In this document: positions 11,401 through 25,985 of the stretch, one piece after another
Numbering within the stretch: position 1 is the first letter of the stretch
Layout of the letters: each line of letters opens with the position of its first letter
DNA from: a virus
Length of the DNA stretch: 64,000 bases
Strand: one strand, 5' to 3'
IMG/VR virus record: IMGVR_UViG_3300044971_004534
Notes under the pieces: model-generated
Databases searched by the model: none
Seen by the model: the letters and a program-made list of their open reading frames with translations, nothing else
Told to the model about the DNA's origin: nothing
Translations under genes and position numbers: made by a program

Positions 11401-14400
11401 TATTGGCCCTCCAGGAAGCGACTATATAGTCCCTATTGGAGACACAACAAAGTCAATTTTTGAAAATCATATATCTCTTATAGAAAGAAGTGCTCCTCCT
11501 TTTGATTCTTTTAATGAGACAGTAATATGGTTAAAAGAATTTTCTGGAGAATCAGGTTTTTCGCAAGGTAAGCAATTTGCTTCAGAATATAGAAATTACA
11601 ATAATTATTTTATTGTAACTTTTGAAGATCAATCAAATAAATATTTTAATGGATTTACAAATACAGATCATATAACTTCTTTTACTTTGTCTTTATATTT
11701 TCAATCTGGCAGTTCTGCGTTGACTAAAGAAGTTGCTTTTGGCCAAGAGATTTTGTCCCTTTACGTATCACGGCTTGATTTGGAAAACACTGATATTACT
11801 TTAGGAAATGGAGCTGCTACTAGAGCTTACATTTTAGAAGATAGTGACATAAAAATACTCGTAAATAGTGCTAAAAATAAACTCACTTTCCAAATACCTC
11901 CAAATACTCAAGTAGACTTTACGGTGAGAGCTGTTGTGTCTTCTCAAAATTTTGTAAATCCATTTATAATAAAAGATCATAAAGAAATAGATTCATTATT
12001 TGTTAAATTTATCAATCAATTTACGCAACAAAATGATAATTCGTATTTATTTGATAACAATAAATTTTCAATTGGTAAAACTGAAAAAAGATATGACAAC
12101 CTCATTCCTTTGCTGGGAACTTTGAGATTTGATGATTTGAACATTAATGCTAATGCAATATCTGCAAATTTTGCTAATTTATCAACTATTCAGAATTCCG
12201 CAGAAGATATTGATTCGTTTTCGTGTGCAGATGTTTCTTCAATTAATACTTATGAGTTAATAGATCAGTTTAATATTGATGGAAGTGATAGTCATCTTGG
12301 TCATAGTTATGTGGGTATCATTCCTGAAAGAGTTTCTTTTATAGCAAAAAATAATGAGACATTAGATGAGTATTCAATAAGAACTGGATCTGTTGCTGGT
12401 TATAGAGAAGCCGTGATTAAGGATGTATACACGGGATATGCAAAAGCTTGTTTAATTATTAATGGAGCTTCTTCAGCGGGTAAGGCAACTTCTTTTGCTT
12501 TAGGAACAGTGTTTGTTATATCCGATTATGCCAACATTGACATATCGAGTAATTTTAAATTGCAGTTAGATGCTAATTATCTTCGTCTTGGCAAAACTGA
12601 TAAGCTTTTAATCAATAAATGGTCTCATATATCAAATGAAGCTTTTTATCAATCATCTGAATATAAATTAAATTATCATTTAATGTGTAACGTATTTGTT
12701 GATGATAGGCCGATATTGTCTCACAATGCTCAAGTAGATTTAAGTGATAAAAATAGACAATGGGATATTTGCTTTGGCTCTCCATTTGGTTCTTATCCTG
12801 TGTGCAGAAATGGAAACTCTAGTTTCTTAGATTTTATTTCTGCTACTAATTGGGAGCTTAACTTTAATAATATTAGAGTTGGCAGTCCACGCATGGTTAT
12901 AGCAAGTGGGGCTTCAGAAGTATCTTCCTACACATACTCTTCGCCTTCATTAGTAAAACCTGTTCCAAATTCTGATTCAAACACAAAAAATGAAATATTT
13001 TCAGAGTCGCTAATAGATCCTGGTGATTGGGTGTGTCTCGAAGATTCTAGTCTTCTTGTAGATCAGTGGTCTGCAGAGAGCGGTGGATGTGTCTATGTTG
13101 GAAGTTATGCTAAATCTGCTAGTGGATTTAGGTCTATATTGCTGGAGTCTTGTGTTCCATATAGTCAAGATATTATAAATCTTTCTTACAGGCTGTATCC
13201 GCAGATAAAAACAAGAAGAGGTAGAATATCGACTGGTAGTGGTGGAGGTCTGTCTCAAGTTACTGGAACCTTATATCCTAATGAGTCTCACAAAATTTAT
13301 ATTACAACAGGGCTAAGGCAGTTGCCTGAAAATTTGCCAAGACTAGTAAAAACCATACTTGTACAATGTGATGCAGATGTTTTTGCGTATAGACATCCTG
13401 TAGTTTCTGGAAGATTTGCAAGTTCTTTGTCTGCCCTAGATTACAAAACATTTAGATCCGATTTTATTCCGTCTTCCTCTAATTTTAACGTTAATATTAG
13501 AAACGTTTCAGATAATTTGAGTAGTTCTTTTGCTCACTTTTACATTAGTTACAACGGAACTGGATGGATAGATAATTTTACGGGTCCAATTGACCACACA
13601 AACGGAAGTACATATGGAGATTCAGTATTTTATATTGATCAAGATGGAGTTCTTGGTCTTTATAGAGGCTACAATTTAAGTGGAGGAATCAGTTCAGAAG
13701 CTAATCTGCTCAATCCTGATGATCCTTTGAAGATAGTTGCAGTTGATTCTTCTTTACATTTTAATACCACTGTAAATCAAAATGATTCTGCTATTGCTGT
13801 AACATCTGACGGCGATCTGGTCACTTTTACTTATGATGGTTCTGAAACTGATATACCTTCTTTTATGTATCAGGCCAACTTGCCAGCAGATTCTAATTAT
13901 GTTAATGTTTCAATTGGATGGACTCACGGTTGTGCATTAAAGAAAGATGGCACTGTTACATGCTGGGGTGATGACACTTATGGTCAGGTTAGCGGGCAGC
14001 CATCGGGTGTAAAATTTGTTCAAATAAAAGCTGGTAAATATTTTACTGTGGGCTTAAAAGAGAATGGAGAAATTGCTGTTTGGGGTAGAGATAATCATAA
14101 TCAAGTAACAAATAAGCCATCTGGAAAGTTCGTAAAGATAGATGCTGGTTCTGATCATGCAGTTGCAATAGGATTTGATGGCTATCCTGTGTCCTGGGGC
14201 AAGAATGTAGGTATTGCATATAGTGCTTCTATAAGGATTACAGATCCACAAACAAAATTAATTGACGTTGCTGCATGTGGTGGCGATGTTTATAATTTGA
14301 ACACATATGCATCTAGCACTCCTGGATCTTCTGTTTTAACTACTACAAATCCATTTAATGTTGGCATTGACGTTAATGGAAACGTCGTTGCTTGGGGGCC

Positions 14401-17400
14401 TTACGCGACTGCATTTACTCCAACAGGAAGAGAAGGCACTCATTCTTCTCCAAGCGTACCTTGTGTTGCTGTGAAAAAAGGTATAAAAAATGCATTACTA
14501 TTAGGTGTTGATGGCAAAATATATTCATATGGTATATCATATTGCCCGTCTGACCCCTCTGATGTAGATGCTCCATCAAATGTTTCATCAATATACAAAA
14601 CAGATTTAGATTTTATATCTGGTGGTTTGTTGGTAAGCGGTGTTGACGTATATCCAGTTTCAAATTTAGTGGAAGAAGAAGCTGATGTAGAAAACTTCAG
14701 ATTGTTGGGTATGACTTCTAATAATGAGTTGCTTACTTCATATGGACTTCCGTATCTTGCATCAATAAGTGGTGTACCAATTTCTTGGAATAATGGTGAT
14801 CTTCAGAAGTCTCCATCTTGCATAGTCGATAGATTTGATAAGTTAAGTATCGTTTGGGAGGACAATGGTAGGGGACCATGGGGTGTTGCATTAACATCAA
14901 ATATTTGGTTGAATAGATCTTTTACTGACAAAGTATATCTTTCAGAAAGATCATATTCCGGTATAAATCCAGCCGTTTCTTCTGACTCAAGCGGAAAAAG
15001 AATCGTAGTATGGGAGTCGATAAAAAATGAAAAGCATTTTATTGAATGTGCATCTCATGTCTTGCATCCTGACTATGTTTCTGAATGCGATATTGATAAA
15101 ATAGTTAAGTCCAGCAGAGAGCTCGGTATCGACCCAGATCCTTACGATCCATATAATGTTGAAAAGTCACTTATGTCATGTAAGGTCGAAGTCTCATTTA
15201 CTGCACCTGAATTTGGGAATTACTTTTTTAATATAAAGTTTAAGGATTATATTAATGAAAATATAATTTACAAAACCGCTTCTTCTAGATCTGAATCTGG
15301 CAAATGGTTTATTAATGGTAAAAATATGCCATTTAATGGTCAAGTAATCGCTCAGGGTGAAACTATAGCCTTGTCTTATGTTCCAGACGCAAATGATGAT
15401 GTGTTCAACAAAGTTCTTAAGGTTGATATAGGATATAGCATTGAAAATGAACAAGAAGAAGTGTTTATCACATATAAAGCTCCTAGTATTACTGAGGGGA
15501 GAGGCTATGGTTGGTGGGACATTCCTACTCGCTCATATCCCATAGAAATCAAATCTCCACCAGCGGTTGATTTTATAAATGAATTTTTAGTTTTTGATGA
15601 GGCTGCCATAAATGCTCCTGTTAGTGTTTCTGAGCAAAAAGCTAGTTATTTTGAGTCTATTGGTTCTTCAAAAGATACTAATTTTATATTCCCAACTGGG
15701 ATTGATAGTCTTCCTGGCTTCAGTGCTGGAGATTATGTAAAAAGCTTTTTACTTCTTCTTGGAGATGACGGACTGACTACCAATAACGTTGTTGAGGGAA
15801 CTTTAACATTCAGTGCTCCTATTGTTGCTGTTATAGTTGATTCTGCAAATCTCGCTGCAACTGACAATTATTTTAATGATGCTTCTAGGCCAATTGTTAT
15901 ACAAAGAAAAGGTTTGGTTTCTAATTTTCAATTTTATCAAGGTGAATATATAAGGCTAAGTGAAGATCGTAAGTCTTTGAGCCTGAGATTTAGGCAGCCA
16001 AGAAGAACTTCTTGGCCTTCAATTCCTGGTGGAGTAACCTCTACTAAGCCTGGCAGCGCTGTACTGACTACAGGCGATACTATTGTTTCAGTAGACGTAA
16101 AAGAAGTTAGTGTCAGTGGCCTTTTAGTCGCTCCTTCCGATGTTGGGGTTTTTGATAGAGTAGATGAAACTTTTGGAAGTGTAGGTCCTTTGGCTGCAGG
16201 TTTGAGCGCAAATGCAAGACCATACGGCAGTCTTAGAATAATAGTATCAAACACTGGAAGTGCAACTGGCCAAATAACGACAACCTATTTTTGTTCAAGT
16301 CCTATTATTAATTCTTGTAAGATAAATATGTCTTACAAGAACGATTCTACAGAAGTTAAGAATGTTCATTTTAAAGTTTCAGTATTTGCAGACTCTAACT
16401 ATACTGACTCTTTGATGGTATTTAGCTCCCTGTCTGATCCAAGAATGTGGTCAAGTGGTAATGATGTTTACCCAACTGCTGGATTAGGGATTGCTCCTAG
16501 TTCAAATATTGCTGTTAATTTTTCCCCACCTACTATAGACGTTCAGAATTTTCAAATTCCAGTTGATCAAAATTCAGTTAATGAGCAGTCAAGAGTAGCT
16601 GGCTATGGTAATTATTTTAACTTGTCAAGATCATCACTAATATGCGGAGTTAGATATTACATAATAGCTGAGTCTATAGTAGATGGTAATGCTTCAGAAA
16701 TCTTCCGAAGCTCTCTGCTATGTCCTTGCAGAGAAGAACTTTCATATAAAGAAGATGCTTTTGAGTGGCGTAGTCCGTTGAATGGTTCTAACAATACAAT
16801 TATCGCAATGTCTAATTACTACATAGGTCATCCAAGCGTGGTCGGCGGAAAAGATGGATTGTTTGCGATTGTTTGGGAAGACAGTAGAAGTTCTCAAAAC
16901 TCTTATGGTATCATCAATAAAAATATACAGCAAGTAGATTTATACTGCGGTTTCTTTGACACCAACAGAGACATTATTGAGTCTGCTTATCATGGTGGAA
17001 TTGACAGGCTTTTGGTGAATAATTCAAATGCTACTGATAAAAACATATTGGATTGCAGAATGCCTCATGTTGCTGCTGATGATTTTGGAAATTTCTCTAT
17101 TTTTGCTAATGTTGGTTATAATAAGATTATTAAAAGATACTTAAGTGTTGGATCAAAAATTACGCCAAACATTATAGAAGAATCCGCTAATACTAAAGCA
17201 TGCTCATTTACGTTGACCGATGTCACGAGGTATGCTACCGCTTTTGATGGCGGAGAATTTATGCAGGCTAGGGTTGCAGAGCGTTTTGTTAAATCGTACA
17301 AGTCTATTGCCTCATCTGATTCTGCTCCAGTAGTTAATGATTGTTTTATTGATTTAGAAGTAATAGGGATTCCTGGAGCGATGGCCTTTAGGATTAAAAA

Positions 17401-18283
17401 TGAATCAGAATCTGATTTTACTGATTGGATTCCAATAGGTATGGCAATCCAGCCATTAGATAGTGTTGGAAAAGAGATATCAGAAGATGCTTCTAAATTT
17501 AGAGAAGCGTTTAAGGGCAAATGGATAGCAAATGATATATTTATTGCCCCCTGGGTGCTTAGTAAGGGTGATGGAGTCAAAAGAGTTTGTCTTGAGGTTT
17601 TGACACAATTTGGAAAAACTCAACAATTCTGCTTAGACATTATTGCAGAATATTCATCTATGTCTTATGTGGTAGAAGTTTTCTACGTAGAATCTGGAAA
17701 GACTGAAAAGCTTTTCAAGCCAATTAAGTATAAGGGCATTCCTGTTGTGAACAGGAAAACATGGTATAAATCTGCTGAAAATAATCAAACAGCAATTACT
17801 TTATCTCTTGAAGATTTAAGAACTATTGATTTATCAGAATCCACAGAAGTAGATTTGTACGTGCAGGTAACTTTTGAAGACTCTCAGAGAATATCTAGAC
17901 TTAATGCACTTAATCAAATAGCCTCGTATGCTGATAGAAGAAAAGATTCTGGTTCTATGAAAGCTTATCTTTATCAGCAAGGTAGTCGCGTTTATCGTTC
18001 TGTGCTTAATCCTGTGGCAAACAGTGATGGCGTGTATTATGCAACTTTTAAAATAAAGAAAAATAATGGCGCAACAGATAAAGATGGATTAGGTTTTATA
18101 TTTATAGATGTGCCTTCAGAATGTTTGAATCCTTTTGTCAAAAAGTTTATAAATACGCTGAGGCTGTTAAGTGATCCAGGATTGGATCGCTCGTATGCCG
18201 AAGTAATTGATCAAAATGCATTTATTGAAAGGTACGTCAATACAGATAAGAGAAATGCATTTGGTTCTAGGAGATTATTCTAA
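8417..18283 (+). CDS. Giant structural protein (3,288 aa) with RCC1-like repeats and dispersed BNR/sialidase-like blades
   Basis: 9.9-kb uninterrupted ORF whose ATG lies 1 nt after the upstream stop. RCC1-like repeats sit at nt 13916-14206. Four blades of the type NP(A/S)xxSDxxGxxhhhWE lie at ~10409, 14966, 16829 and 17060. No signal peptide (MLSPVIKINKFDSHL...). Confidence 0.9.
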   Translation: MLSPVIKINKFDSHLKSIDATLSNLDYNKRYKIEFSNLNFDSVNERVEISSGTFSDINNVSEIKFSYKIKSDEDKFLYCQIYEWDIDGWKSSHIATSVFKEDDVVDSKYITVDPIYVGHNDKINILVSAKPNHKYDVIVGKNSFTITTNNVGKSSLHINAINAVDYKTFSQKFVKKYTCSLIDSENKQLVENSFFEFVPEHMYALAATNDPDRPSCVILDPDPVAAFSVATEPFDSPCFVQPLVGSLFTSDGASYGDVSRLDPDYKNCNDGYVSSALSVVNSSCKIYNKPKFVNLNVFDTNARKKIKSLYASGENKIPEIVFFHRNIGFVYSACDENASDINNPIDPCSFSSQEIKKIPRIFLGCTTGASKIKVHSLARGILKAPPSYFHSALIGKNGADDVEISDGDIVNIVFDLSNGSRISKSLEYSDSTHGNISAFVEALASEISSDSNIVNANISVRPYPDLKRIDFTSDTKFIIFAGQVNFIDSSTGDYKKNNKVLIVRDSKYTFDFEITNPSDYDDIKNVLNSGGTHMVFLDGQFKGLTVSINKTATSGVITLDTCPRVSVERRGLGAFIVSDDIYCTHVAFISKDKLIEDSSGTEFTALPFLRNNFNEVIPSSHPCITANGQVLCQGLVDGKWQIFGYFPGLTDSPWLQLTSNGENRNPSAASDSEGNIHIAWETDRFGYTTIQYGCIGPSSKLINRLALSGLISRQISDELVSKIFDINPIGDDVNFIESSSNNITLLPEIELRSLVAGAEISGGSFRIAREFTGNVRIDDDEFSNLAQVPASFNKFGAIRWADGAPPDFYNGSYCTSYIVHFQQNGTGSGSTVSASFSASFNGKILRVFLGPNQMSRSNEVFRSTEIIYPAVQSGDQISNFVMNASVIDGEIEISGDGKTLIFSMNYRDLEQIGPMQLRVLVDGVKSQNSVDQSSWNRIFSNNGKVSVPENSQVCVECSPKFDCAIASLSVYENEAGIPFDGQEREINLSVHADCSIGPPGSDYIVPIGDTTKSIFENHISLIERSAPPFDSFNETVIWLKEFSGESGFSQGKQFASEYRNYNNYFIVTFEDQSNKYFNGFTNTDHITSFTLSLYFQSGSSALTKEVAFGQEILSLYVSRLDLENTDITLGNGAATRAYILEDSDIKILVNSAKNKLTFQIPPNTQVDFTVRAVVSSQNFVNPFIIKDHKEIDSLFVKFINQFTQQNDNSYLFDNNKFSIGKTEKRYDNLIPLLGTLRFDDLNINANAISANFANLSTIQNSAEDIDSFSCADVSSINTYELIDQFNIDGSDSHLGHSYVGIIPERVSFIAKNNETLDEYSIRTGSVAGYREAVIKDVYTGYAKACLIINGASSAGKATSFALGTVFVISDYANIDISSNFKLQLDANYLRLGKTDKLLINKWSHISNEAFYQSSEYKLNYHLMCNVFVDDRPILSHNAQVDLSDKNRQWDICFGSPFGSYPVCRNGNSSFLDFISATNWELNFNNIRVGSPRMVIASGASEVSSYTYSSPSLVKPVPNSDSNTKNEIFSESLIDPGDWVCLEDSSLLVDQWSAESGGCVYVGSYAKSASGFRSILLESCVPYSQDIINLSYRLYPQIKTRRGRISTGSGGGLSQVTGTLYPNESHKIYITTGLRQLPENLPRLVKTILVQCDADVFAYRHPVVSGRFASSLSALDYKTFRSDFIPSSSNFNVNIRNVSDNLSSSFAHFYISYNGTGWIDNFTGPIDHTNGSTYGDSVFYIDQDGVLGLYRGYNLSGGISSEANLLNPDDPLKIVAVDSSLHFNTTVNQNDSAIAVTSDGDLVTFTYDGSETDIPSFMYQANLPADSNYVNVSIGWTHGCALKKDGTVTCWGDDTYGQVSGQPSGVKFVQIKAGKYFTVGLKENGEIAVWGRDNHNQVTNKPSGKFVKIDAGSDHAVAIGFDGYPVSWGKNVGIAYSASIRITDPQTKLIDVAACGGDVYNLNTYASSTPGSSVLTTTNPFNVGIDVNGNVVAWGPYATAFTPTGREGTHSSPSVPCVAVKKGIKNALLLGVDGKIYSYGISYCPSDPSDVDAPSNVSSIYKTDLDFISGGLLVSGVDVYPVSNLVEEEADVENFRLLGMTSNNELLTSYGLPYLASISGVPISWNNGDLQKSPSCIVDRFDKLSIVWEDNGRGPWGVALTSNIWLNRSFTDKVYLSERSYSGINPAVSSDSSGKRIVVWESIKNEKHFIECASHVLHPDYVSECDIDKIVKSSRELGIDPDPYDPYNVEKSLMSCKVEVSFTAPEFGNYFFNIKFKDYINENIIYKTASSRSESGKWFINGKNMPFNGQVIAQGETIALSYVPDANDDVFNKVLKVDIGYSIENEQEEVFITYKAPSITEGRGYGWWDIPTRSYPIEIKSPPAVDFINEFLVFDEAAINAPVSVSEQKASYFESIGSSKDTNFIFPTGIDSLPGFSAGDYVKSFLLLLGDDGLTTNNVVEGTLTFSAPIVAVIVDSANLAATDNYFNDASRPIVIQRKGLVSNFQFYQGEYIRLSEDRKSLSLRFRQPRRTSWPSIPGGVTSTKPGSAVLTTGDTIVSVDVKEVSVSGLLVAPSDVGVFDRVDETFGSVGPLAAGLSANARPYGSLRIIVSNTGSATGQITTTYFCSSPIINSCKINMSYKNDSTEVKNVHFKVSVFADSNYTDSLMVFSSLSDPRMWSSGNDVYPTAGLGIAPSSNIAVNFSPPTIDVQNFQIPVDQNSVNEQSRVAGYGNYFNLSRSSLICGVRYYIIAESIVDGNASEIFRSSLLCPCREELSYKEDAFEWRSPLNGSNNTIIAMSNYYIGHPSVVGGKDGLFAIVWEDSRSSQNSYGIINKNIQQVDLYCGFFDTNRDIIESAYHGGIDRLLVNNSNATDKNILDCRMPHVAADDFGNFSIFANVGYNKIIKRYLSVGSKITPNIIEESANTKACSFTLTDVTRYATAFDGGEFMQARVAERFVKSYKSIASSDSAPVVNDCFIDLEVIGIPGAMAFRIKNESESDFTDWIPIGMAIQPLDSVGKEISEDASKFREAFKGKWIANDIFIAPWVLSKGDGVKRVCLEVLTQFGKTQQFCLDIIAEYSSMSYVVEVFYVESGKTEKLFKPIKYKGIPVVNRKTWYKSAENNQTAITLSLEDLRTIDLSESTEVDLYVQVTFEDSQRISRLNALNQIASYADRRKDSGSMKAYLYQQGSRVYRSVLNPVANSDGVYYATFKIKKNNGATDKDGLGFIFIDVPSECLNPFVKKFINTLRLLSDPGLDRSYAEVIDQNAFIERYVNTDKRNAFGSRRLF
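13916..14206 (+). repeat. Three consecutive RCC1-like repeats; weaker flanking repeats extend to ~13790-14540
   Basis: The three repeats are GWTHGCALKKDGTVTCWGDDTYGQVSGQP / VQIKAGKYFTVGLKENGEIAVWGRDNHNQVTNKP / VKIDAGSDHAVAIGFDGYPVSWGKN. They fit the RCC1 signature G.xH.xAL...G.V..WG.N..GQ. Downstream lie NVGIDVNGNVVAWGPYA and ALLLGVDGKIYSYG. Confidence 0.7.
18269..18273 (+). promoter_or_regulatory. Shine-Dalgarno AGGAG for the 18283 gene
   Basis: The sequence is TCTAGGAGATTATTCTAATG, with 9-nt spacing to the ATG. Confidence 0.5.
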
Positions 18284-19791: not shown

Positions 19792-22700
19792 ATGCCAATA
19801 GTAAAATCACTATTTAGAATAGATCGTCGTCCTATAGCTCGTATAGTTTGCGATCCTATGTCTTTTGTTACTGTAAATTCTTTAGAATACGTGCCGTGTC
19901 CAGATTTGAATAGAGATGGTGTAGTGGACAATGCTGATTTAGCTATAGTTCAAAGCAACTGGGGTGAAAATCCTGGTCATCCTGCAGATTTAAATCTTGA
20001 CGGAAAAGTAGATGGCTTAGATATAAACATAGTATTGTCAAATATGGGGGTTGCAAATTGTGTAGATAATGTAGAAGATCTTTGTAATATTGCACGAGGA
20101 AGATGTTTAGGATCTGCTTTTTATGGAGCTAATGGTTTTTACAAATTTTTTAATATTTATTTAACTAAATTATATGATGCTGGTTTTAGAAGATTTTCTA
20201 TACAATCTCCATCAGGATGCTATTTAGATCCATCTACCGGGAATTTATCAAGTAATATCAGAAACACTTTTGATAATTTGCAGTCTTATTATTTTATTAC
20301 ACGCCGAGAGGAAGCCGGGGTTTGTGAAGAACGTAATTTACCTTTTGACGCAAGTAATCTCAGGCTTGATGATCAGTTGTATACGAGTTTTTTTGAAGCA
20401 TTTGTTGGACATCTTTCTTATTGGATTAGAAGTCGTCATGAGTCTGTTGATGTTCATATTGAGATGGGTTCCAAAGTAATATATACTAGTGGTTCTGTAA
20501 ATACTGATGTGCTAAATTTGCCTGTAAATGAGTTTGTAAATGTAGAGCAAGATTTTAATATTGATATTCCAGAACATAGAAGATGGTTTGAATACAACTG
20601 TGGAAATTATTTGAGTAGTGGCGTGTCTGGTATAGGGTTGAGCAATTGCAAACTATCATTATTGAATAATCTAGTAAATTTTACAAATATCAATAAGGCT
20701 ATGTGGAAATTGTATGAATCTTATTTTATGCATGTCAATGTGCCAAATATAAATGGAGATTTATTGAATAGTGAAGAATACTCAAGGTTCAAAATTATTT
20801 CCAATTTTACCAACCCTGTTGGATTCGGCAGTACAAATCTGTTTAGATTATTTAGCGGTCTTCGCATGTTTGACAAAGGGTCCGAGATACACGGCTCATT
20901 TAAGTCTGAAGAATTAAATTCATATTCATCTGATTTATTAAGAGAATATGTAGATGACACTGGAATTATTCCTGGAATTGAACTGTCTTATTCTGTTGAC
21001 GGTAGCTCTTTAAATGTTGAATCAATTTCTAATCAGTTTTCAAAAATAAATCAAGCTATTGAATATGCAGAAAATCAGTCAAACGTCAGAAGTTTTGGTC
21101 AATCTATGTTCTTTTTTAGTGAATCTGCAGGAGAGACAAGAAATTCAAATGGTGCAGTAAGTACTTCAAACGCATATTTAAGGTCTTCTGCAAAAGAAGA
21201 TCCAGCAATTGTTCCTGTTATAAAAGTGAATTGCTCAAAGAGTATAAAAAGTTTAGATGAAAGTGTCATTCGTTCTTACATCCCTTCTTGGTGGTTTACT
21301 GATCGTTCAGGGGAATGCATAGATATTTCTATGATTGACGCAGTTTTAAATAGTTGGACTGTGCAAAACTCAGCAGACATAGTTAAAGTAAATTCTTCTA
21401 GTCCTTATGGGACGTATGGTCCAGAAAAATGCGCAGATGCTGCTTTTGATTTGATATTGCAATATCAGTCCTCTTATACAGGAGTGGATCGTGCAAGCAT
21501 TAATTTTCAAAACACAAAAAATATAGCAATTAAATTGGAAAACTGGGGTGATCTTTTTGATCACGAGTGTACAAAAGATGATCTTAATGATGTTTTGGCT
21601 GAAGGTTGGTGCAGGCTATTTACAAACTCCCTTGATCAGATCAGGCCTTATTTTGATAGGGAACTTGAATTAGAGCGTTCGCCTATTAATAGACTTAAAA
21701 ATTTGTATGCAAAAAATGGAACTTTCGAATGTTCTCTTTGGGTAAAAAGATTTATTCAAAGATTCAAATATAGACAGCACAACAGGAGAGTAGATAGCTC
21801 TTTGAGCGTTGTTCCTAATCCTAGAATTATATACATAGATGAACCTAATGTATTGGCTGTACATGATTTTATTGATTATGCTTATTTGGATAGTGGTTCA
21901 TCTTCTGTATGTCTGAATAATGGTCATAATTTTGGATCATGGCATCATCATGTCAATGATCCAAGATTTTCTGATAAAGAAGTTGGATTTAAATGGCGAG
22001 ATGTTAGTAACTTAAAAGACGCTTACATGATTGCAGATCAATCTTCAGAATTTAAAGTTAAGCGTGCCTCTAGCGACTCAGATAATTTGCTTGGTGATAT
22101 TTTAATTTCTGACTATAGCAAAAAAATAGAGTCTTATGCTTATTCTGATCAGTCCAACGCGGCAATAGAAAAATGGTTGCAAATTTTAATAGACGAAGTA
22201 GTAAGTCGTAGAGTTTACGAGAGCATGGGTATGCATGTGGAAAATGCATTTTCTTTAGGAAGATATGCGCAACGAGGATTTACTTGTGGCATTAGTGATA
22301 GTTTATCCGCGTGTAATATACAAGCTCCATTTTATTATTTTGTTAATAGATGGCAGTACTACAACGGTAAGCATAATTTTAATATTCCAAAATCCACTAG
22401 CGTTCAAGTGCATCATATTTGTCCTACTTCTGTTGCCGTTGACGATGGTATAAATCAGGCAGCTTTTGACTGGTCTCCTGATTTTAAAAACACAAAAGTT
22501 AGATTTGAAAGTTTAGAATACATTTTAACATATGATAACAACCAGCCTGAGCATGGTAATTTTGGATGGCGTCCCATGTATAGCAAGGACCCTGACGGAA
22601 GAGGAATTTTTTCTTATGGATCAGGCCCTATTGACGGCAACCCAGAAGATGGAATTATTTATGGAGATGTGCATAGGTCAAATATGCAAATGCTCTTACA

Positions 22701-24918
22701 GAAAAATCACGCAAAATATCTATCTTACTTGTTAAGTACAATTTACACCCTCAACTCATCAGCTTCATTTTATCAAAAAACAAAAGTTGTATTTACTCAT
22801 GGAATAAACAATAATTCTTTAAATGTTTCTTTGGCGGCAAATATTAAATCTTTAGGAAATCTTCAAACAGGTGCTTTGACTGCTTCTGCAGACAAAATAT
22901 TTGATATAGAATTTTTAGATGGATATTCATTTGATTTTAGATCTTTTGTGTCTTCGTGGTATCGTATACTTCAAAAAATATCTCGCGAAAATATATACGA
23001 TCAATTTATTTTTATACACAAACATAGGCAGCAAGGCGTATCAGATTGGCAAGATCTATCTACTGGCATACAAAATGCACTAGTTTATCAGGAACCTCCT
23101 GGATCATCGTCCAGTTCTAGCAGTTCTAGTTTCATGATGGGAGACTGGGATTTAGATGGTGTTATTGGCGGTAGTGATCTAGGACCGTTGCTAGGCTGCT
23201 TTGGCACTTCTGATCCACAATGTCTGCGTGTATTTGATTTTGATGGAGACGGTGTTATTGGCGGAAATGATCTAGGAGTTTTGTTAGGAATGTGGACGGT
23301 GGCATCTAGTTCTAGCAGTTCTAGTTTCATGATGGGAGACTGGGATTTAAACGGGATTATTAATGGTAGTGATCTGGGACCGTTGCTAGGCTGCTTTGGT
23401 TCTTCTGATCCACAATGTCTGCGTGTATTTGATTTTGATGGAGACGGTGTGATTGGCGGAAATGATTTAGGAGTTTTATTAGGCATGTGGACTGTAACAT
23501 CTAGTTCTAGTAGTTCTAGTAGTTCTAGTAGTTCGATTAATCTTGACGACTACACTGGAGTTATGGCAGTTCGTGTAAATGAAAACGGCATTTACAACAT
23601 TACTGGATCAGCTTTAAACAATTTTAACTGGAAAATTTATGTCTCTGTTAGAGACAATAATAGTTATTTGCATTGTGTTTTATTAGATAGTAGTGGTGGC
23701 GTTCAAAGTGTTTTGTTTGATATTTTAATAAATAATAAGTTTGTAGGCGATATTGTAAAAGAAATAGACGGAATAGCAGGGTTTCATGCAGAAGTTTTAA
23801 ATAATGCTGATCTGTCTATTAGTGATGGCATTTATTTTGACCCAATGAAAGTGTATACAGAAAATGATTTTGCAATAGGTTACCTAGAAAACCCAACAAC
23901 TAATTTTACAGGTTTTGACAATCCATTTTTGCTACTTTCTCTAGAAGGTACTACTAACGATTACGCATTGATAGGTTCTCAAGTAAAGCAAAACTTTGGT
24001 AAATACCCATCTTACAAAGCTATTGTTCCATCTGCAAAATTATCTAGCGTAATTGGTGGGTCTTCTGGATTTTTGACAGTTGAAGATCCTCTCAACATTC
24101 TAGCTACATTTAATCATGTTTCTATAGATGGAGAAATTATAAAAATTAATGAATGGAACAATGGTGTTGCAGAAATTGTTGAAAGGTCTGTTGGTGGAAC
24201 TGTAAAAAGATTTCACCCCAGTGGATCAAGTGTGTTTGGAGTTGGAGACAATGATGTATTTGATAATAACTTCTACTTAGATAGTAATGGCAAGTATATC
24301 TATCAGTATAGGTGTTTGGCTATTAGAAATATATACAAAAATCTATCCATAGTTAACCCATCGATTGTTATGGAAAATAATTACAATCCAGGTTTAACAA
24401 ACTTAAGTTTTGGTTTCGAAATACCTGCGCATAAATATGTAGTGCTAAGTAGTTCGGTGGGATCTGGCACAAGAGTTGTTAATATAGAAACAGAAAATCT
24501 ACAGAATTATTCATACAATGGTAATTTGAGTAGCTACACTGACTCATTAATGAGATTTTCTAATTCATCTGGTTCTGTGTATTATAGAAAAATTGTTTCT
24601 ATAAATAGTAATTTTATTGAACTGGATAAAGACCTTCCATCTCCAGTAAATCAATTTGTTAGTGTAGAGATCTTACCAGGTCAAGCATCTAATAGTCATC
24701 AAGGTAAAATGTCTCCTGTTGTGTCTTCAAGATTCAGCGGATTTTATAATGTTGGAGAATTAAATAATTTATCAGTACCTCTTGTAGGAAATAATCTAAC
24801 TAGGTCTATTTCTTATAATAATATAATATATCTATGGATAAAAAGAGAAGTGCCAAAAGACGTAAGAATGAATTTACAAAACACTTTACCAATTAAATTT
24901 AAATTTACAATTAAATGA
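19792..24918 (+). CDS. Large structural protein (1,708 aa) carrying three dockerin-like Ca-binding modules
   Basis: Uninterrupted ORF. The N-terminal dockerin-like pair is DLNRDGVVDNADLAIVQSNWG / DLNLDGKVDGLDINIVLSNMG (19903-20049). Two tandem copies of a 65-aa module (GDWDLDGVIGGSDL...FDFDGDGVIGGNDLGVLLGMW) bracketed by poly-Ser lie at 23101-23535. Confidence 0.88.
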   Translation: MPIVKSLFRIDRRPIARIVCDPMSFVTVNSLEYVPCPDLNRDGVVDNADLAIVQSNWGENPGHPADLNLDGKVDGLDINIVLSNMGVANCVDNVEDLCNIARGRCLGSAFYGANGFYKFFNIYLTKLYDAGFRRFSIQSPSGCYLDPSTGNLSSNIRNTFDNLQSYYFITRREEAGVCEERNLPFDASNLRLDDQLYTSFFEAFVGHLSYWIRSRHESVDVHIEMGSKVIYTSGSVNTDVLNLPVNEFVNVEQDFNIDIPEHRRWFEYNCGNYLSSGVSGIGLSNCKLSLLNNLVNFTNINKAMWKLYESYFMHVNVPNINGDLLNSEEYSRFKIISNFTNPVGFGSTNLFRLFSGLRMFDKGSEIHGSFKSEELNSYSSDLLREYVDDTGIIPGIELSYSVDGSSLNVESISNQFSKINQAIEYAENQSNVRSFGQSMFFFSESAGETRNSNGAVSTSNAYLRSSAKEDPAIVPVIKVNCSKSIKSLDESVIRSYIPSWWFTDRSGECIDISMIDAVLNSWTVQNSADIVKVNSSSPYGTYGPEKCADAAFDLILQYQSSYTGVDRASINFQNTKNIAIKLENWGDLFDHECTKDDLNDVLAEGWCRLFTNSLDQIRPYFDRELELERSPINRLKNLYAKNGTFECSLWVKRFIQRFKYRQHNRRVDSSLSVVPNPRIIYIDEPNVLAVHDFIDYAYLDSGSSSVCLNNGHNFGSWHHHVNDPRFSDKEVGFKWRDVSNLKDAYMIADQSSEFKVKRASSDSDNLLGDILISDYSKKIESYAYSDQSNAAIEKWLQILIDEVVSRRVYESMGMHVENAFSLGRYAQRGFTCGISDSLSACNIQAPFYYFVNRWQYYNGKHNFNIPKSTSVQVHHICPTSVAVDDGINQAAFDWSPDFKNTKVRFESLEYILTYDNNQPEHGNFGWRPMYSKDPDGRGIFSYGSGPIDGNPEDGIIYGDVHRSNMQMLLQKNHAKYLSYLLSTIYTLNSSASFYQKTKVVFTHGINNNSLNVSLAANIKSLGNLQTGALTASADKIFDIEFLDGYSFDFRSFVSSWYRILQKISRENIYDQFIFIHKHRQQGVSDWQDLSTGIQNALVYQEPPGSSSSSSSSSFMMGDWDLDGVIGGSDLGPLLGCFGTSDPQCLRVFDFDGDGVIGGNDLGVLLGMWTVASSSSSSSFMMGDWDLNGIINGSDLGPLLGCFGSSDPQCLRVFDFDGDGVIGGNDLGVLLGMWTVTSSSSSSSSSSSSINLDDYTGVMAVRVNENGIYNITGSALNNFNWKIYVSVRDNNSYLHCVLLDSSGGVQSVLFDILINNKFVGDIVKEIDGIAGFHAEVLNNADLSISDGIYFDPMKVYTENDFAIGYLENPTTNFTGFDNPFLLLSLEGTTNDYALIGSQVKQNFGKYPSYKAIVPSAKLSSVIGGSSGFLTVEDPLNILATFNHVSIDGEIIKINEWNNGVAEIVERSVGGTVKRFHPSGSSVFGVGDNDVFDNNFYLDSNGKYIYQYRCLAIRNIYKNLSIVNPSIVMENNYNPGLTNLSFGFEIPAHKYVVLSSSVGSGTRVVNIETENLQNYSYNGNLSSYTDSLMRFSNSSGSVYYRKIVSINSNFIELDKDLPSPVNQFVSVEILPGQASNSHQGKMSPVVSSRFSGFYNVGELNNLSVPLVGNNLTRSISYNNIIYLWIKREVPKDVRMNLQNTLPIKFKFTIK
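19903..20049 (+). other. N-terminal dockerin-like double EF-hand module
   Basis: The segments DLNRDGVVDNADL-AIVQSNWG and DLNLDGKVDGLDI-NIVLSNMG are two DxNxDGxVDxxD loops, each followed by a helix ending N(W/M)G. That is the type-I dockerin architecture. Confidence 0.7.
23101..23535 (+). repeat. Tandem 195-bp (65-codon) duplication encoding two dockerin-like modules, bracketed and separated by poly-Ser tracts
   Basis: Copy 1 starts ~23113 and copy 2 ~23308; the FMMGDWDL ATGs at 23134 and 23329 give a period of exactly 195 nt. By my hand alignment ~17-18 mismatches in 195 nt (~91% identity), clustered in the first Ca-binding loop (DLDGVIGG vs DLNGIING). Each copy has two DxDxDGxIxGxD loops. 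Confidence 0.9.
23500..23535 (+). repeat. Coding Ser microsatellite (TCT/AGT units, 12 consecutive Ser codons)
   Basis: The run is TCT AGT TCT AGT AGT TCT AGT AGT TCT AGT AGT TCG. Related AGT/TCT/AGC runs lie at 23104-23130 and 23305-23325. Confidence 0.9.
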
Positions 24919-25985
24919 GCACACTAAGTATAGAAAAATATTTGCATTTTAACTTTGATCAGTTTCCGGTTGTGGAAACTGGTACTTTAGATAATCTAAT
25001 TTTCAATGGCAATGGTAGTGTGGATATCGTTCCAGGTGTATTTTCTTCTGGTCTTTTATTAAATGATGATGGGTATTTTTCAATGCCTATATCATCTGTT
25101 AGATATCAAAATTTGCGTTCAGAATTTTCTGTAGGATTTTGGTTAAACTCTGTTTCTTTATCTGATAAAATTTATGATGACGTTGTAATAGTGCCATCTA
25201 TGCCTATATTGTCTGTTGGTAATGCTACGTTATTGAATGGTTCTTACGTTTTTTCTGATGGTCTATTTATGTTATATGAAAAATCTGTCTTTGCCAATTA
25301 TAATAAAATGTATTTGATTATAATGACATCTGGTGGTGAAAAGCTAGAATTTGAAAGTGAAATATACGAAACTGGTATCTTTAATCATTTTATGTTTTCT
25401 GTAAATTCAGAAACAAGTCAAATAAAACTCTATATTAATGGAGTAGAAAGTATACTATCTTCTAATACAGCCGTTCTTCCTCCATCCTTTGGTCTTTCTT
25501 CAGTTCCAGAGCTGTATATTAATAAAAATATAGAAGGTGATAATAGAAGTTTAGAAAAAAATAAGGGTGTAATAGATGATCTGTTTATAATAGCTGATGC
25601 AATTATTGAAAATTATAAAATATCTAAAATAATAGCTGACGGATTTTCATCTTATATTGCAGAAGTTTCTGGCAATATATCAGAAAGAGTTTTTGATGCA
25701 AAAATTAGTTTTTTGCAAAAAACGTCTGTAGCTCCTCCAATATCTGCCGTAGACATGTCTAGTGGAGATATTGTGGCTGGAACTCAAGATGGTGTCGTTT
25801 TAAAAGGAGACTCGGGGTATTGGAATAAGAAATACAGTTTAACGAATCAGCAATCCTTAAGTGATTTTACTGTTGTTTATTCTACTCAAAACAGCTCTGG
25901 TTCTAATGAAAATTCTGCAAATGATGGTAAGATAATATCTGGAGAGGGTCTTATCTTATTTAAAAATGGTATTATAATAAACTAA
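24915..25985 (+). CDS. LamG (concanavalin-A-like lectin) domain protein (356 aa)
   Basis: ATGA overlap with the upstream gene. The Laminin_G_3-like pattern reads LHFNFDQ...GNGSVDIVPGVFSSGLLLNDDGYFSMP...EFSVGFWLNS...FNHFMFSVNSETSQIKLYINGVE...GVIDDLFIIADAI. Confidence 0.8.
   Translation: MSTLSIEKYLHFNFDQFPVVETGTLDNLIFNGNGSVDIVPGVFSSGLLLNDDGYFSMPISSVRYQNLRSEFSVGFWLNSVSLSDKIYDDVVIVPSMPILSVGNATLLNGSYVFSDGLFMLYEKSVFANYNKMYLIIMTSGGEKLEFESEIYETGIFNHFMFSVNSETSQIKLYINGVESILSSNTAVLPPSFGLSSVPELYINKNIEGDNRSLEKNKGVIDDLFIIADAIIENYKISKIIADGFSSYIAEVSGNISERVFDAKISFLQKTSVAPPISAVDMSSGDIVAGTQDGVVLKGDSGYWNKKYSLTNQQSLSDFTVVYSTQNSSGSNENSANDGKIISGEGLILFKNGIIIN
24945..25640 (+). other. LamG / concanavalin-A-like lectin domain
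   Basis: See the CDS at 24915-25985. The pattern is typical Laminin_G_3: FxVGFWLxx ... hFhFSV.....hKLYINGV ... DDLFI. Confidence 0.6.

What the first reader, a model, noticed from the sequence alone, without database searches (positions are those of the whole stretch)
23101..23535. Recent tandem duplication of dockerin-like modules linked by Ser microsatellites
Two 195-bp copies (~91% identical by hand alignment) each encode a double EF-hand module (GDWDLDGVIGGSDL...FDFDGDGVIGGNDLGVLLGMW). They are bracketed by runs of 9, 6 and 12 Ser codons built from AGT/TCT units. The mismatches concentrate in the first Ca-binding loop (DLDGVIGG vs DLNGIING), hinting at divergence of binding specificity. 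Long direct repeats combined with microsatellites form a substrate for copy-number and linker-length variation by recombination or slippage, all of it in frame.
Basis: seen in the sequence. Interest (0 to 1): 0.7.

Follow-up and report, generated by a model that had tools for sequence, protein, structure and literature searches.

The report
Tandem dockerin modules in phage protein
A giant protein of an uncultivated, probably phage-like virus carries two calcium-binding "dockerin" docking modules strung on poly-serine linkers. This array is an old, recombination-prone hot spot whose linker lengths, and in relatives module number, vary in frame, but the module type itself is already known.

Summary
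A 195-bp unit repeated 2.1 times (91% identity, no indels) lies in frame in a 1708-aa ORF (19792-24918). It encodes two 58-aa modules flanked by Ser runs of 9, 7 (not 6) and 12.

The modules are dockerins, not generic EF-hands. Their profile hits PDB dockerins best, an AlphaFold model (pLDDT 95) matches dockerin structures (TM 0.62-0.75 against about 0.3 for calmodulin), and 492 profile hits are mostly PF00404 proteins.

"Recent duplication" and "diverging specificity" are not supported. Every resolved strain allele of this lineage has two modules. Between the copies dS is 0.31 and omega 0.13. Between strains the array shows 2-4 times higher dS and dN at unchanged omega (about 0.1), and one strain shows gene conversion between the modules.

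The variation hypothesis is largely supported. Ser runs differ by 3-codon steps between strains (9/12, 12/15). Module number differs between lineages (0, 2, 3, 4). A near-clonal sister population shows three in-frame one-unit deletion alleles, though assembly collapse is not excluded.

The gene sits in a block of giant unknown genes over 70 kb long, on contigs up to 301 kb, listed in IMG/VR and absent from GTDB. No cohesin partner was found. The finding is a solid but moderately interesting new member of a known kind.

The parts
19792..24918 (+). 1708-aa ORF that contains the array. Layout: N-terminal dockerin, ~1000-aa body, Ser-linked double dockerin, ~460-aa C-terminal part.
   Evidence: ORF list. 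Orthologues occur in conserved synteny. The identical CDS is on at least 8 contigs.
19891..20055 (+). N-terminal single dockerin module (aa 34-88), with loops DLNRDGVVDNAD and DLNLDGKVDGLD.
   Evidence: Pfam PF00404 Dockerin_1 scores 30.6-34.7 bits against a cutoff of 22.9. These modules cluster by orthology across lineages. The module is absent, together with the array, in the dockerin-less clade.
20074..23085 (+). Conserved body (aa 95-1098) of unknown function. The first ~340 residues may form a (beta/alpha) barrel.
   Evidence: No Pfam, NCBIfam, PHROG or PDB sequence match. The AF2 model has pLDDT 36. Foldseek on that poor model returns only TIM barrels, which is a weak hint.
23104..23130 (+). 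Ser run 1 (9 Ser, aa 1105-1113). Length is polymorphic between strains: 9, 12 or 10.
23131..23304 (+). Dockerin module 1 (aa 1114-1171): FMMGDWDLDGVIGGSDLGPLLGCFGTSDPQCLRVFDFDGDGVIGGNDLGVLLGMWTVA.
   Evidence: Repeat copy 1. The module profile hits PDB dockerins, best 2y3n_B at E 2.9e-13. The AF2 model has pLDDT 95.3. Foldseek top hits are all dockerins.
23305..23325 (+). Ser run 2 (7 Ser, aa 1172-1178), the inter-module linker.
   Evidence: It is 7 Ser in WIN, L039 and L031, and 8 in L030.
23326..23499 (+). Dockerin module 2 (aa 1179-1236). It differs from module 1 at 5 residues, 3 of them in loop 1.
   Evidence: In strain L031 it has been converted towards the module-1 type.
23500..23535 (+). 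Ser run 3 (12 Ser, aa 1237-1248), a perfect 9-bp microsatellite x 3.7. It is 15 Ser in L032 and interrupted in L030.
   Evidence: TRF 23502-23534, period 9, 100% matches.
23539..24915 (+). C-terminal part (aa 1250-1708). The last ~330 aa (23920-24915) belong to a family of mostly stand-alone ~325-aa proteins with weak similarity to phage tail proteins.
   Evidence: 162 representatives at E<1e-3. Among 40 members the only annotated PHROG hits are tail protein, tail assembly, tail fiber, baseplate wedge and virion structural families, all weak. Phage_BR0599 scores 21.5 bits against a cutoff of 22.9 in one member.
23088..23486 (-). Antisense 132-aa ORF, most likely a non-coding by-product of the repeat.
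   Evidence: Its translation simply repeats with the 195-bp period, and nothing else supports it.

Best explanation
The feature is a two-unit array of non-cellulosomal, type-I-like dockerin modules. Each module has two Ca2+-binding loops, each followed by a helix. The modules are separated and flanked by poly-Ser linkers encoded by a 9-bp AGT/TCT microsatellite. The array lies between a ~1000-aa body and a C-terminal domain that resembles phage tail proteins. The host protein is 1708 aa long and also starts with a third, single dockerin. Its gene sits in a block of giant genes over 70 kb long, in an uncultivated and probably phage-like genome of at least 300 kb.

Shown:
- The array is an old, lineage-wide feature, not a fresh duplication.
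- It evolves in concert: paralogues are homogenised by gene conversion.
- Both synonymous and nonsynonymous changes accumulate 2-4 times faster than in the flanks, at unchanged strong purifying selection (omega about 0.1).
- The Ser linkers change by 3-codon steps between strains.
- Module number differs between lineages (0, 2, 3, 4).

Probably real: one-unit, in-frame deletions segregate in a near-clonal sister population.

Inferred mechanism of variation: homologous recombination or unequal crossing-over between the 195/198-bp units, and replication slippage in the 9-bp Ser repeat. Both always preserve the reading frame.

Inferred function: the modules are Ca2+-stabilised docking units on flexible linkers. 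They would form a multivalent, length-adjustable tether or hinge between the distal body and the virion-anchored C-terminal domain, binding a partner not yet identified (a cohesin-like domain or another surface ligand).
For: Dockerin identity:
- The loops are canonical and positions 1, 6 and 12 are invariant across 25 modules.
- The module profile's best PDB hit is dockerin 2y3n_B (E 2.9e-13, one stretch over positions 2-57). The double dockerin 8x39 is the best hit for the whole protein.
- The AF2 model has pLDDT 95.3. Foldseek top hits are all dockerins (TM 0.62-0.75), while calmodulin scores about 0.3.
- 492 profile hits are mostly PF00404 proteins. The N-terminal module passes the Pfam cutoff.

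Concerted evolution and hot spot:
- Modules cluster by lineage, whereas the N-terminal dockerins cluster by orthology.
- L031 m2 is 96.0% identical to its own m1 and 94.3% to WIN m1, but only 89.7% to WIN m2.
- Array dS is 0.28-0.34 against 0.06-0.15 in the flanks, with omega 0.10-0.12 against 0.04-0.14.
- In the P0002 cluster, diversity is 0.123 in the array against 0.027-0.029 elsewhere, and 25 of 35 gapped columns are in the array, all in Ser-rich linkers.

Length and copy variation:
- Ser runs are 9/12/10 and 12/15.
- Module counts are 0, 2, 3 and 4.
- The three 198-bp deletion alleles have breakpoints in exact shared stretches of 32-91 bp, and the flanks differ by 0-1 SNP.
- The A/B chimera occurs on two contigs (P0001, P0010) and the A-C allele on two contigs.

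Context:
- The block is in IMG/VR, absent from GTDB and in conserved synteny.
- The 501-aa and 1848-aa neighbours hit PHROG tail fiber J, and the C-terminal family hits tail PHROGs.

Precedents:
- Multi-dockerin modules exist in cellulosomal bacteria (PMC12484212).
- Nine non-cellulosomal dockerins occur in a giant Omnitrophota ORF (PMC10066038).
- Uncultivated-phage proteins are already named Dockerin type 1.
Against: - The internal modules on their own fail the Pfam PF00404 gathering score (12-13 bits against 22.9).
- No cohesin was detected in any of the 16 complete ORFs of the window, even at E<=5. The docking function therefore has no identified partner.
- Ca2+ binding is untested.
- The phage assignment rests on weak PHROG hits and IMG/VR listing. 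There is no match to any of 50,697 annotated phage records.
- Copy number is constant within the window lineage (2 in all four resolved alleles) and within the P0002 cluster (4 in 11 alleles).
- The only within-population copy-number change is in a near-clonal, short-read-assembled population, where repeat collapse cannot be excluded.
- Many assemblies break at the array, or leave a scaffold gap in it.
Confidence: 0.62

Rival explanations
1. One reading: a recent tandem duplication whose copies are diverging in the first Ca loop towards different binding specificities (neofunctionalisation).
For: The copies are 91% identical, and 3 of the 5 amino-acid differences fall in loop 1. Between alleles the most variable segment positions (9-11, 15, 18, 22) lie on one helical face, which in dockerins is the partner-contact face (the contact-face assignment comes from general knowledge of type I dockerins).
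Against: The two-module state is shared by all resolved strains, down to 83% nt identity. dS between the copies is 0.31, above the dS between strains. Omega is 0.13 between the copies and 0.10-0.12 between strains, the same as in the flanks. In L031 the loop-1 difference has been erased by conversion. The changes are conservative at ligand positions.
Confidence: 0.1
2. The copy-number alleles in the sister population (three kinds of 2-module form against the 3-module form) are short-read assembly collapses. On short time scales the array is stable in copy number, and only the linker lengths drift.
For: The flanks of all these contigs are virtually identical (0-1 SNP in 8-24 kb), so all could derive from one 3-unit genome. 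The 3-unit form is the commonest (11 contigs). Arrays are clearly hard to assemble: contigs end at the array and L032 has a 100-N gap inside it. Copy number is constant within the window lineage and within the P0002 cluster.
Against: The breakpoints lie in exact shared stretches of only 32-91 bp. That is shorter than the final k of 141 shown in the contig name of the A-C allele; the typical final k of the JGI assemblies is my general knowledge, not a tool result. The A/B chimera and the A-C form were each seen on two contigs. P0001 carries a private substitution in module C. Differences in module number between divergent lineages cannot be artefacts of this kind.
Confidence: 0.35
3. The modules do not dock to a cohesin-like partner. 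They would be Ca2+-rigidified structural spacers, or direct adhesins for a host-surface glycan or protein, and their number and linker length simply set the reach of the distal body.
For: No cohesin was found in the window. Most non-cellulosomal dockerins have no known cohesin, and an adhesin role has been proposed for them (PMC10066038, citing Peer et al. 2009). Strong purifying selection on the fold, combined with tolerance of changes in number and length, fits a spacer role.
Against: The variability between alleles is concentrated on one helical face, as expected for an interaction surface. The protein has three dockerins, including one at the extreme N-terminus, which is hard to explain as a spacer.
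Confidence: 0.3
4. The locus is cellular, not viral: a cluster of giant surface adhesins in an uncultured small-genome bacterium. In that case the dockerins would act in cell-cell attachment.
For: Contigs reach 301 kb. There is no hallmark phage gene and no match to annotated phages. Giant ORFs with multiple non-cellulosomal dockerins are known in Omnitrophota (PMC10066038).
Against: There is no relative in representatives of 185,579 GTDB species. The contig is listed in IMG/VR. All annotated PHROG hits in the block are tail or virion families. The genes are tightly packed and co-directional, with overlapping stop and start codons.
Confidence: 0.2
5. The modules are ordinary EF-hand pairs (calmodulin-like Ca sensors) rather than dockerins.
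For: Pfam EF-hand models score slightly higher than Dockerin_1 on a single module (about 21 bits against 12-13, all below their cutoffs). JGI names a homologue 'Ca2+-binding EF-hand superfamily protein'.
Against: The EF-hand matches cover single loops only. The profile's best full-length match is a dockerin. The predicted fold matches dockerins at TM 0.62-0.75 and calmodulin at about 0.3 with RMSD about 11 A. The 492 profile hits are mostly PF00404 proteins.
Confidence: 0.04

Closest known systems
Type I dockerin modules (Pfam PF00404), non-cellulosomal class (Peer et al. 2009; typical of Planctomycetota/Phycisphaerales proteins)
   Same: A ~58-aa module of two duplicated segments, each a 12-residue Ca loop followed by a helix. 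Same predicted fold. The module profile retrieves PF00404 proteins. The N-terminal copy passes the Pfam cutoff.
   Different: The internal copies fall below the Pfam cutoff individually. They carry a conserved GDWD start and a Cys pair. They sit in the middle of the protein rather than at the C-terminus of an enzyme. There is no cohesin, scaffoldin or recognisable CAZyme nearby, and the genome is probably viral.
Double- and multi-dockerin modules of cellulosomal bacteria (e.g. C. thermocellum Clo1313_0689 dDoc, PDB 8x39; triple to septuple dockerins in R. flavefaciens; PMC12484212)
   Same: Dockerins in tandem within one polypeptide. 8x39 is the best PDB hit for the whole protein over the tandem region.
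   Different: In dDoc_0689 the two dockerins pack into one rigid unit (PMC12484212). Here they are separated by a 7-Ser linker and flanked by 9- and 12-Ser runs, which suggests independent beads. Their packing could not be tested. Copy number and linker length vary here between relatives.
Giant ORFs with multiple non-cellulosomal dockerins in Omnitrophota (nine PF00404 domains, proposed adhesins; PMC10066038)
   Same: Several dockerins in a very large protein of unknown function, among other giant genes, with no cellulosome context.
   Different: Those are cellular genomes. This locus is absent from GTDB and listed as viral, and its C-terminal domain resembles phage tail proteins.
Dockerin-annotated proteins of uncultivated phages (UniProt/BFVD entries named 'Dockerin type 1', Myoviridae/Siphoviridae sp.; a dockerin gene noted in a brine-pool jumbo phage, bioRxiv 10.1101/2024.01.25.577265)
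   Same: A dockerin fold in proteins of tailed phages (TM 0.57-0.76).
   Different: None of those has been functionally studied. I did not check whether they have tandem arrays or Ser microsatellite linkers.
In-frame tandem-repeat arrays evolving in concert in surface proteins (general class)
   Same: Long, near-identical in-frame repeats. Homogenisation by gene conversion. Unit-number differences between relatives. Linker length change by slippage.
   Different: Here the repeat unit is a folded Ca-binding docking domain, and within-lineage copy number appears fairly stable. The frame is always kept, so this is not an on/off phase-variation switch.

Membership tests
Dockerin type I (PF00404) | Two duplicated ~22-residue segments, each a 12-residue Ca-binding loop (D-x-[DN]-x-[DN]-G-x-[IV]-x-x-x-D) followed by an alpha-helix | tested here: met
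   All four internal loops and both N-terminal loops are canonical. Loop positions 1, 6 and 12 are invariant in 25 modules. The model shows loop-helix, short helix, loop-helix.
Dockerin type I (PF00404) | Score above the Pfam gathering threshold (22.9 bits) | tested here: inconclusive
   The N-terminal module scores 30.6-34.7 bits and passes. The internal modules alone score 12.3-13.0 bits and fail. However, a profile of the modules hits PDB dockerins at E 2.9e-13 and 492 proteins, mostly PF00404.
Dockerin type I (PF00404) | Dockerin three-dimensional fold | tested here: met
   The AF2 model has pLDDT 95.3. Foldseek PDB top hits are all dockerins: 2y3n_B TM 0.75 at 1.6 A, 2ozn_B 0.73 at 1.3 A. 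Calmodulins score TM about 0.3. This is a prediction, not an experimental structure.
Dockerin type I (PF00404) | Ca2+-dependent folding | not testable with these tools
   Only the ligand residues can be read from the sequence.
Cohesin-dockerin system / cellulosome | A cohesin-bearing partner (scaffoldin or anchoring protein) encoded by the same organism | tested here: not met
   No Cohesin family hit in any of the 16 complete ORFs of the window at E<=5. Only 64 kb was searched and only by sequence profile, so a divergent or distant partner is not excluded.
Cohesin-dockerin system / cellulosome | Dockerin appended to a carbohydrate-active enzyme | tested here: inconclusive
   The body has no family match. 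A low-confidence model hints at a TIM-barrel-like N-terminal part.
Canonical EF-hand pair (calmodulin-like; PF13499 and relatives) | Helix-loop-helix pairs scoring above the Pfam thresholds and adopting the EF-hand pair fold | tested here: not met
   EF-hand_6 scores about 21 bits (cutoff 25) and EF-hand_7 scores 13-18.5 bits (cutoff 30). Structural fit to calmodulins is TM about 0.3 with RMSD about 11 A.
Rigid double-dockerin (dDoc_0689 type) | Two dockerins packed through a stable interface | not tested
The 7-Ser linker argues for independent modules, but that is an inference.
Simple-sequence contingency locus (phase variation) | Repeat-length changes shift the reading frame or promoter spacing to switch expression on and off | tested here: not met
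   All observed length changes are multiples of 3 nt: 9-bp Ser steps and 195/198-bp units. They change the length of the product, not its expression.
Phage tail/baseplate protein (C-terminal domain) | Significant similarity to an annotated virion tail family | tested here: inconclusive
   The window sequence itself has no PHROG hit. Among 40 family members there are weak hits to tail protein, tail assembly, tail fiber and baseplate wedge PHROGs (best E 1.1e-5). There is no PDB match and no match in annotated phages.

The most novel reading that the evidence does not exclude
The protein's three dockerins (one N-terminal, two internal) would plug into unrecognised cohesin-like beta-sandwich domains hidden in the neighbouring giant proteins (or on the host envelope). 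The >70-kb gene block would then encode a modular, cellulosome-like appendage assembled by cohesin-dockerin pairing on the tail of a phage of at least 300 kb. Recombination-driven changes in module number and linker length would retune reach and valency, and thereby host range.
Probability: 0.1. Interest if true: 0.8.

Novelty: new member of a known kind. Interest (0 to 1): 0.4.

Why it matters
Dockerins are best known as the plugs that assemble cellulosomes. Their many non-cellulosomal occurrences have no established function.

This case places a small, variable dockerin array in the middle of a giant, probably virion-associated protein of a very large uncultivated virus. It also gives natural alleles that differ only in linker length, loop residues or, probably, module number. 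That offers a tractable natural experiment on what such modules do, and a clean example of concerted evolution of a folded-domain repeat under purifying selection.

Taken alone, the finding is an incremental addition. Dockerin folds in phage proteins, tandem dockerins and repeat-driven length variation are all known. The surrounding block of giant unannotated genes is arguably the more remarkable object.

Tried and rejected
Searches that found nothing:
- Megablast and tblastn of the gene against 50,697 annotated phage records. tblastn of the 501-aa neighbour and of two C-terminal-family members against the same records.
- IMG/VR and JGI metagenome scans with window-specific peptides. Only scans with the orthologue alignment worked.
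- A GTDB genome scan.
- NCBIfam on the protein and on the modules.
- A single 58-aa module against 5.8 billion proteins. The module profile did work.
- A literature search for the sample and assembly accessions.
- Source names for C-terminal-family members, which were all 'hypothetical'.
- The C-terminal family profile against the PDB, which gave only chance-level hits.

Failed prediction:
- The ~1000-aa body model was unusable (pLDDT 36). The fold search on it returns only generic TIM barrels, and I treat this as a weak hint, not a result.

Ideas rejected:
- An EF-hand sensor identity for the modules (fold mismatch).
- Positive selection as the cause of the array's diversity (omega unchanged).
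- Phase variation (all changes are in frame).
- An assembly artefact as the origin of the window's own repeat (identical in independent assemblies).
- Coding potential for the antisense 132-aa ORF.


Full report
OBSERVATION

Tandem Repeats Finder reports a 195-bp unit present 2.1 times at 23113-23520, with 91% matches, no indels and score 690. It also reports a perfect 9-bp repeat (x 3.7) at 23502-23534. A direct offset-195 comparison shows 17 differences in 195 nt.

The repeat is in frame inside a 1708-aa ORF at 19792-24918 on the + strand. It encodes two 58-aa modules, aa 1114-1171 and 1179-1236. Each module contains two canonical 12-residue loops: DWDLDGVIGGSD/DFDGDGVIGGND in the first and DWDLNGIINGSD/DFDGDGVIGGND in the second.

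The codons are mostly AGT/TCT.

The repeat is not an assembly artefact. The identical CDS is found on at least 8 contigs, and an NCBI and a JGI assembly show 0 nt differences.

WHAT THE MODULES ARE

Pfam calls a single Dockerin_1 domain above threshold at the very N-terminus (aa 38-81; 30.6-34.7 bits against a cutoff of 22.9). The internal modules taken alone reach only sub-threshold scores: EF-hand about 21 bits and Dockerin_1 12-13 bits.

Stronger tests settle the matter:
- A profile of 25 modules from this protein and its orthologues (alignment A2) has loop positions 1, 6 and 12 invariant in both loops.
- Its best PDB match is the cellulosomal dockerin 2y3n_B (E 2.9e-13, one stretch over positions 2-57). 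Other dockerins and the C. thermocellum double dockerin 8x39 follow. Calmodulins match only loop by loop.
- An AlphaFold2 model of module 1 is very confident (pLDDT 95.3).
- Its Foldseek hits in the PDB are dockerins (TM 0.62-0.75, RMSD 1.3-3.7 A), whereas EF-hand proteins fit poorly (TM about 0.3, RMSD about 11 A).
- The module profile retrieves 492 proteins from 5.8 billion. Most are pre-annotated PF00404. The named ones are 'dockerin type I domain-containing protein' from Phycisphaerales, Planctomycetota and Gammaproteobacteria MAGs.

The modules are therefore divergent, non-cellulosomal type-I-like dockerins.

THE HOST PROTEIN AND ITS CONTEXT

The protein's layout is as follows:
- an N-terminal dockerin;
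- a ~1000-aa conserved body with no detectable family;
- a Ser run, dockerin, Ser run, dockerin, Ser run;
- a ~460-aa C-terminal part.

The body could not be modelled (pLDDT 36). The poor model recalls only generic TIM barrels, which I treat as a weak hint.

The last ~330 residues belong to a family with 162 representatives. Most are stand-alone ~325-aa proteins. Their only annotated PHROG hits are tail, tail-assembly, tail-fiber, baseplate and virion-structural families, all weak.

The window, together with at least 6 kb upstream, is one co-directional block of at least 17 tightly packed ORFs. Many are giant: 3288 aa with RCC1 repeats, 2807, 1848, 1558 and 1302 aa, and an ORF of at least 3035 aa still open at the window end. 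Almost none matches a known family. The 501-aa and 1848-aa neighbours weakly hit PHROG 'central tail fiber J'.

The gene order is conserved in every relative. Contigs reach 281-301 kb. The gene has no relative in representatives of 185,579 GTDB species. It does occur in two IMG/VR viral contigs. No annotated phage record matches. A large uncultivated phage is the most likely source, but this is not proven.

Only this ORF in the window carries dockerin loops or Ser runs. No cohesin is detectable in any neighbour, even at E<=5.

IS THE DUPLICATION RECENT, AND ARE THE COPIES DIVERGING?

Between the two window copies there are 11 synonymous and 6 nonsynonymous changes, giving dS 0.31, dN 0.041 and omega 0.13. 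Three of the five amino-acid differences are in loop 1, but they are conservative: D/N at ligand position 5, V/I, and G/N at position 9.

Looking up the identical small neighbouring proteins recovered other alleles of the window's own lineage:
- L039: 98.2% nt identity to the window;
- L031: 96-98%;
- L030: a mosaic of 83-96%;
- L032: has a scaffold gap inside the array.

All resolved alleles have two modules. The m2 orthologues of WIN and L039 are 95.4% identical, while paralogues are about 90% identical. The duplication therefore predates the split of these strains.

In L031 the two modules are 96.0% identical. Its m2 is closer to WIN m1 (94.3%) than to WIN m2 (89.7%), and the loop-1 difference is erased. 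That is gene conversion.

Across lineages, array modules cluster by genome: 91% in the window, 83-85% in the sister lineage, 83% in P0003 and 78% in P0002. The single N-terminal dockerins instead cluster by orthology. This is the signature of concerted evolution or repeated turnover.

Between strains, the modules show dS 0.28-0.34 and dN 0.026-0.038. The head of the gene shows dS 0.065-0.15 and the tail 0.06-0.10. Omega is the same throughout: 0.10-0.12 in the modules against 0.04-0.14 in the flanks. The array is therefore a recombination or conversion hot spot under purifying selection. It is not evolving adaptively on average.

The positions that vary most between alleles (segment positions 9-11, 15, 18, 22) lie on one helical face, while positions 1, 12 and 17 never vary. 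This is compatible with an interaction surface but does not prove one.

IS THERE IN-FRAME LENGTH AND COPY VARIATION?

Linker length varies. Within the window lineage the first Ser run is 9 (WIN), 12 (L039, L031, L032) or 10 (L030). The third is 12, 15 (L032) or interrupted (L030). The steps of 3 codons match the 9-bp microsatellite unit. In the P0002 cluster (11 full-length alleles), 25 of 35 gapped columns lie in the array and all are in Ser-rich linkers. Amino-acid diversity there is 0.123, against 0.027-0.029 elsewhere.

Copy number varies between lineages:
- 2 in the window lineage;
- 3 in the sister lineage (P0005) and in P0003;
- 4 in P0002;
- 2 in L020;
- 0 in P0004 and L023-25, which also lack the N-terminal dockerin.

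Within one population there is one case. In the sister lineage (67% identical to the window protein), contigs from different samples have flanks that differ by only 0-1 SNP over 8-24 kb. They carry either modules A-B-C (11 contigs) or one of three 2-module forms: an A/B chimera plus C, A-C, or B-C. Each 2-module form is a clean 198-bp in-frame deletion with its breakpoint in an exact shared stretch of 32-91 bp.

Several points favour real alleles. The shared stretches are shorter than the final k of 141 shown in the name of the contig carrying the A-C allele. The chimera and the A-C form each occur on two contigs. One allele carries a private substitution. Against this, the clonal flanks and the evident difficulty of assembling the array leave about a one-in-three chance that these forms are collapses: contigs end at the array and L032 has a 100-N gap inside it.

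Copy number is constant within the window lineage and within the P0002 cluster. Unit gain or loss is therefore much rarer than linker slippage.

MECHANISM

Shown: the anatomy, the dockerin identity, concerted evolution, in-frame linker-length polymorphism and lineage differences in module number.

Inferred:
- Unequal homologous recombination between the 195/198-bp units, and slippage in the 9-bp Ser repeat, generate the variants.
- The modules are Ca2+-stabilised docking or adhesion units on flexible linkers, which may be glycosylated (a glycosyltransferase gene lies at 7264-8415).
- They tether the distal body to a virion-anchored C-terminal domain and to an unidentified partner.

COMPARISON WITH WHAT IS KNOWN

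- Tandem dockerins, from double to septuple, are known but rare in cellulosomal bacteria (PMC12484212; PDB 8x39).
- Nine non-cellulosomal dockerins occur in a giant Omnitrophota ORF and were proposed to be adhesins (PMC10066038, citing Peer et al. 2009).
- Dockerin-annotated proteins already exist among uncultivated phages, and a dockerin gene was noted in a jumbo phage (bioRxiv 10.1101/2024.01.25.577265).

The present case is a new member of this known kind. Its architecture is unusual: the array is internal and Ser-linked, there is a third dockerin at the N-terminus, and the gene sits in a giant-gene block of a probable phage.

VERDICT

The 'recent duplication with diverging specificity' reading is not supported. 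The 'substrate for in-frame variation' reading is supported for linker length and, on evolutionary scales, for copy number. Interest is moderate (0.4).

Noticed in passing
window 1-64000 (and L017, 6 kb upstream): The whole window is one co-directional, tightly packed block of at least 17 ORFs. Many are giant (3288, 2807, 1848, 1249, 1221 and 1218 aa; 1558 and 1302 aa upstream; an ORF open from 54895 to the window end, at least 3035 aa). There are almost no Pfam or PHROG hits. Synteny is conserved in all relatives and contigs reach 301 kb. The block is absent from GTDB representatives and annotated phages but listed in IMG/VR.
   Followed up: partly
window 8417-18283: A 3288-aa protein with RCC1 repeats (beta-propeller-like; PF13540 at 64.8 bits), conserved as the gene two positions upstream of the dockerin gene in all relatives.
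   Followed up: no
window 7264-8415: A GT1-type glycosyltransferase gene (phrog_2170, E 1e-26; Glycos_transf_1) embedded in the structural-looking block and overlapping the preceding ORF. It could glycosylate the poly-Ser linkers, which is speculation.
   Followed up: no
window 23088-23486 (- strand): A 132-aa antisense ORF whose translation repeats with the 195-bp period. It is most likely a stop-free by-product of the repeat and not a gene.
   Followed up: partly
L030:1866-7004 vs window 19792-24918: Mosaic divergence between strains: 83% nt identity over the first 3.3 kb of the gene, 63-66% in the modules, 96% in the last 1.35 kb, and no amino-acid difference after aa 1400. This suggests inter-strain recombination with a boundary near the array.
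   Followed up: partly
window 23131-23499 (modules), and orthologues: Each internal module has a conserved Cys pair, one in helix 1 (LGCFG) and one in the inter-loop linker (PQCLRVF). P0002 modules 1 and 3 have a CxGC variant. This may be a disulfide, which would fit an extracellular or virion location.
   Followed up: no
P0004, L023, L024, L025 (orthologues, ~1447-1464 aa): A dockerin-less clade lacks both the N-terminal dockerin and the internal array, so the three dockerins appear to have been gained or lost together.
   Followed up: partly
window 24915-25985: The 356-aa downstream ORF has a weak Laminin_G_3 (ConA-like lectin) match (E 0.0017). Relatives of the dockerin protein's C-terminal domain occur fused to Laminin_G_3 (P0080, P0128).
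   Followed up: no
window 20074-21100 (aa ~95-435 of the ORF): An alternating beta/alpha secondary-structure pattern at moderate pLDDT. The low-confidence model hits only (beta/alpha)8 barrels, including amylase and GH31 types. This may be an enzymatic barrel, but it is not reliable.
   Followed up: partly
window 46887-50543 and 53140-54837: Weak pentapeptide-repeat matches (E 0.004-0.02) in two large neighbouring ORFs. The C-terminus of the 1218-aa ORF hits phrog_4390 (unknown function, E 1.7e-5).
   Followed up: no
L016, L021, L032-L037, L040-L046: Many short-read contigs end exactly at the dockerin array, or carry a 100-N scaffold gap inside it. The array is therefore a systematic assembly breakpoint, and copy numbers from short-read assemblies need caution.
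   Followed up: yes
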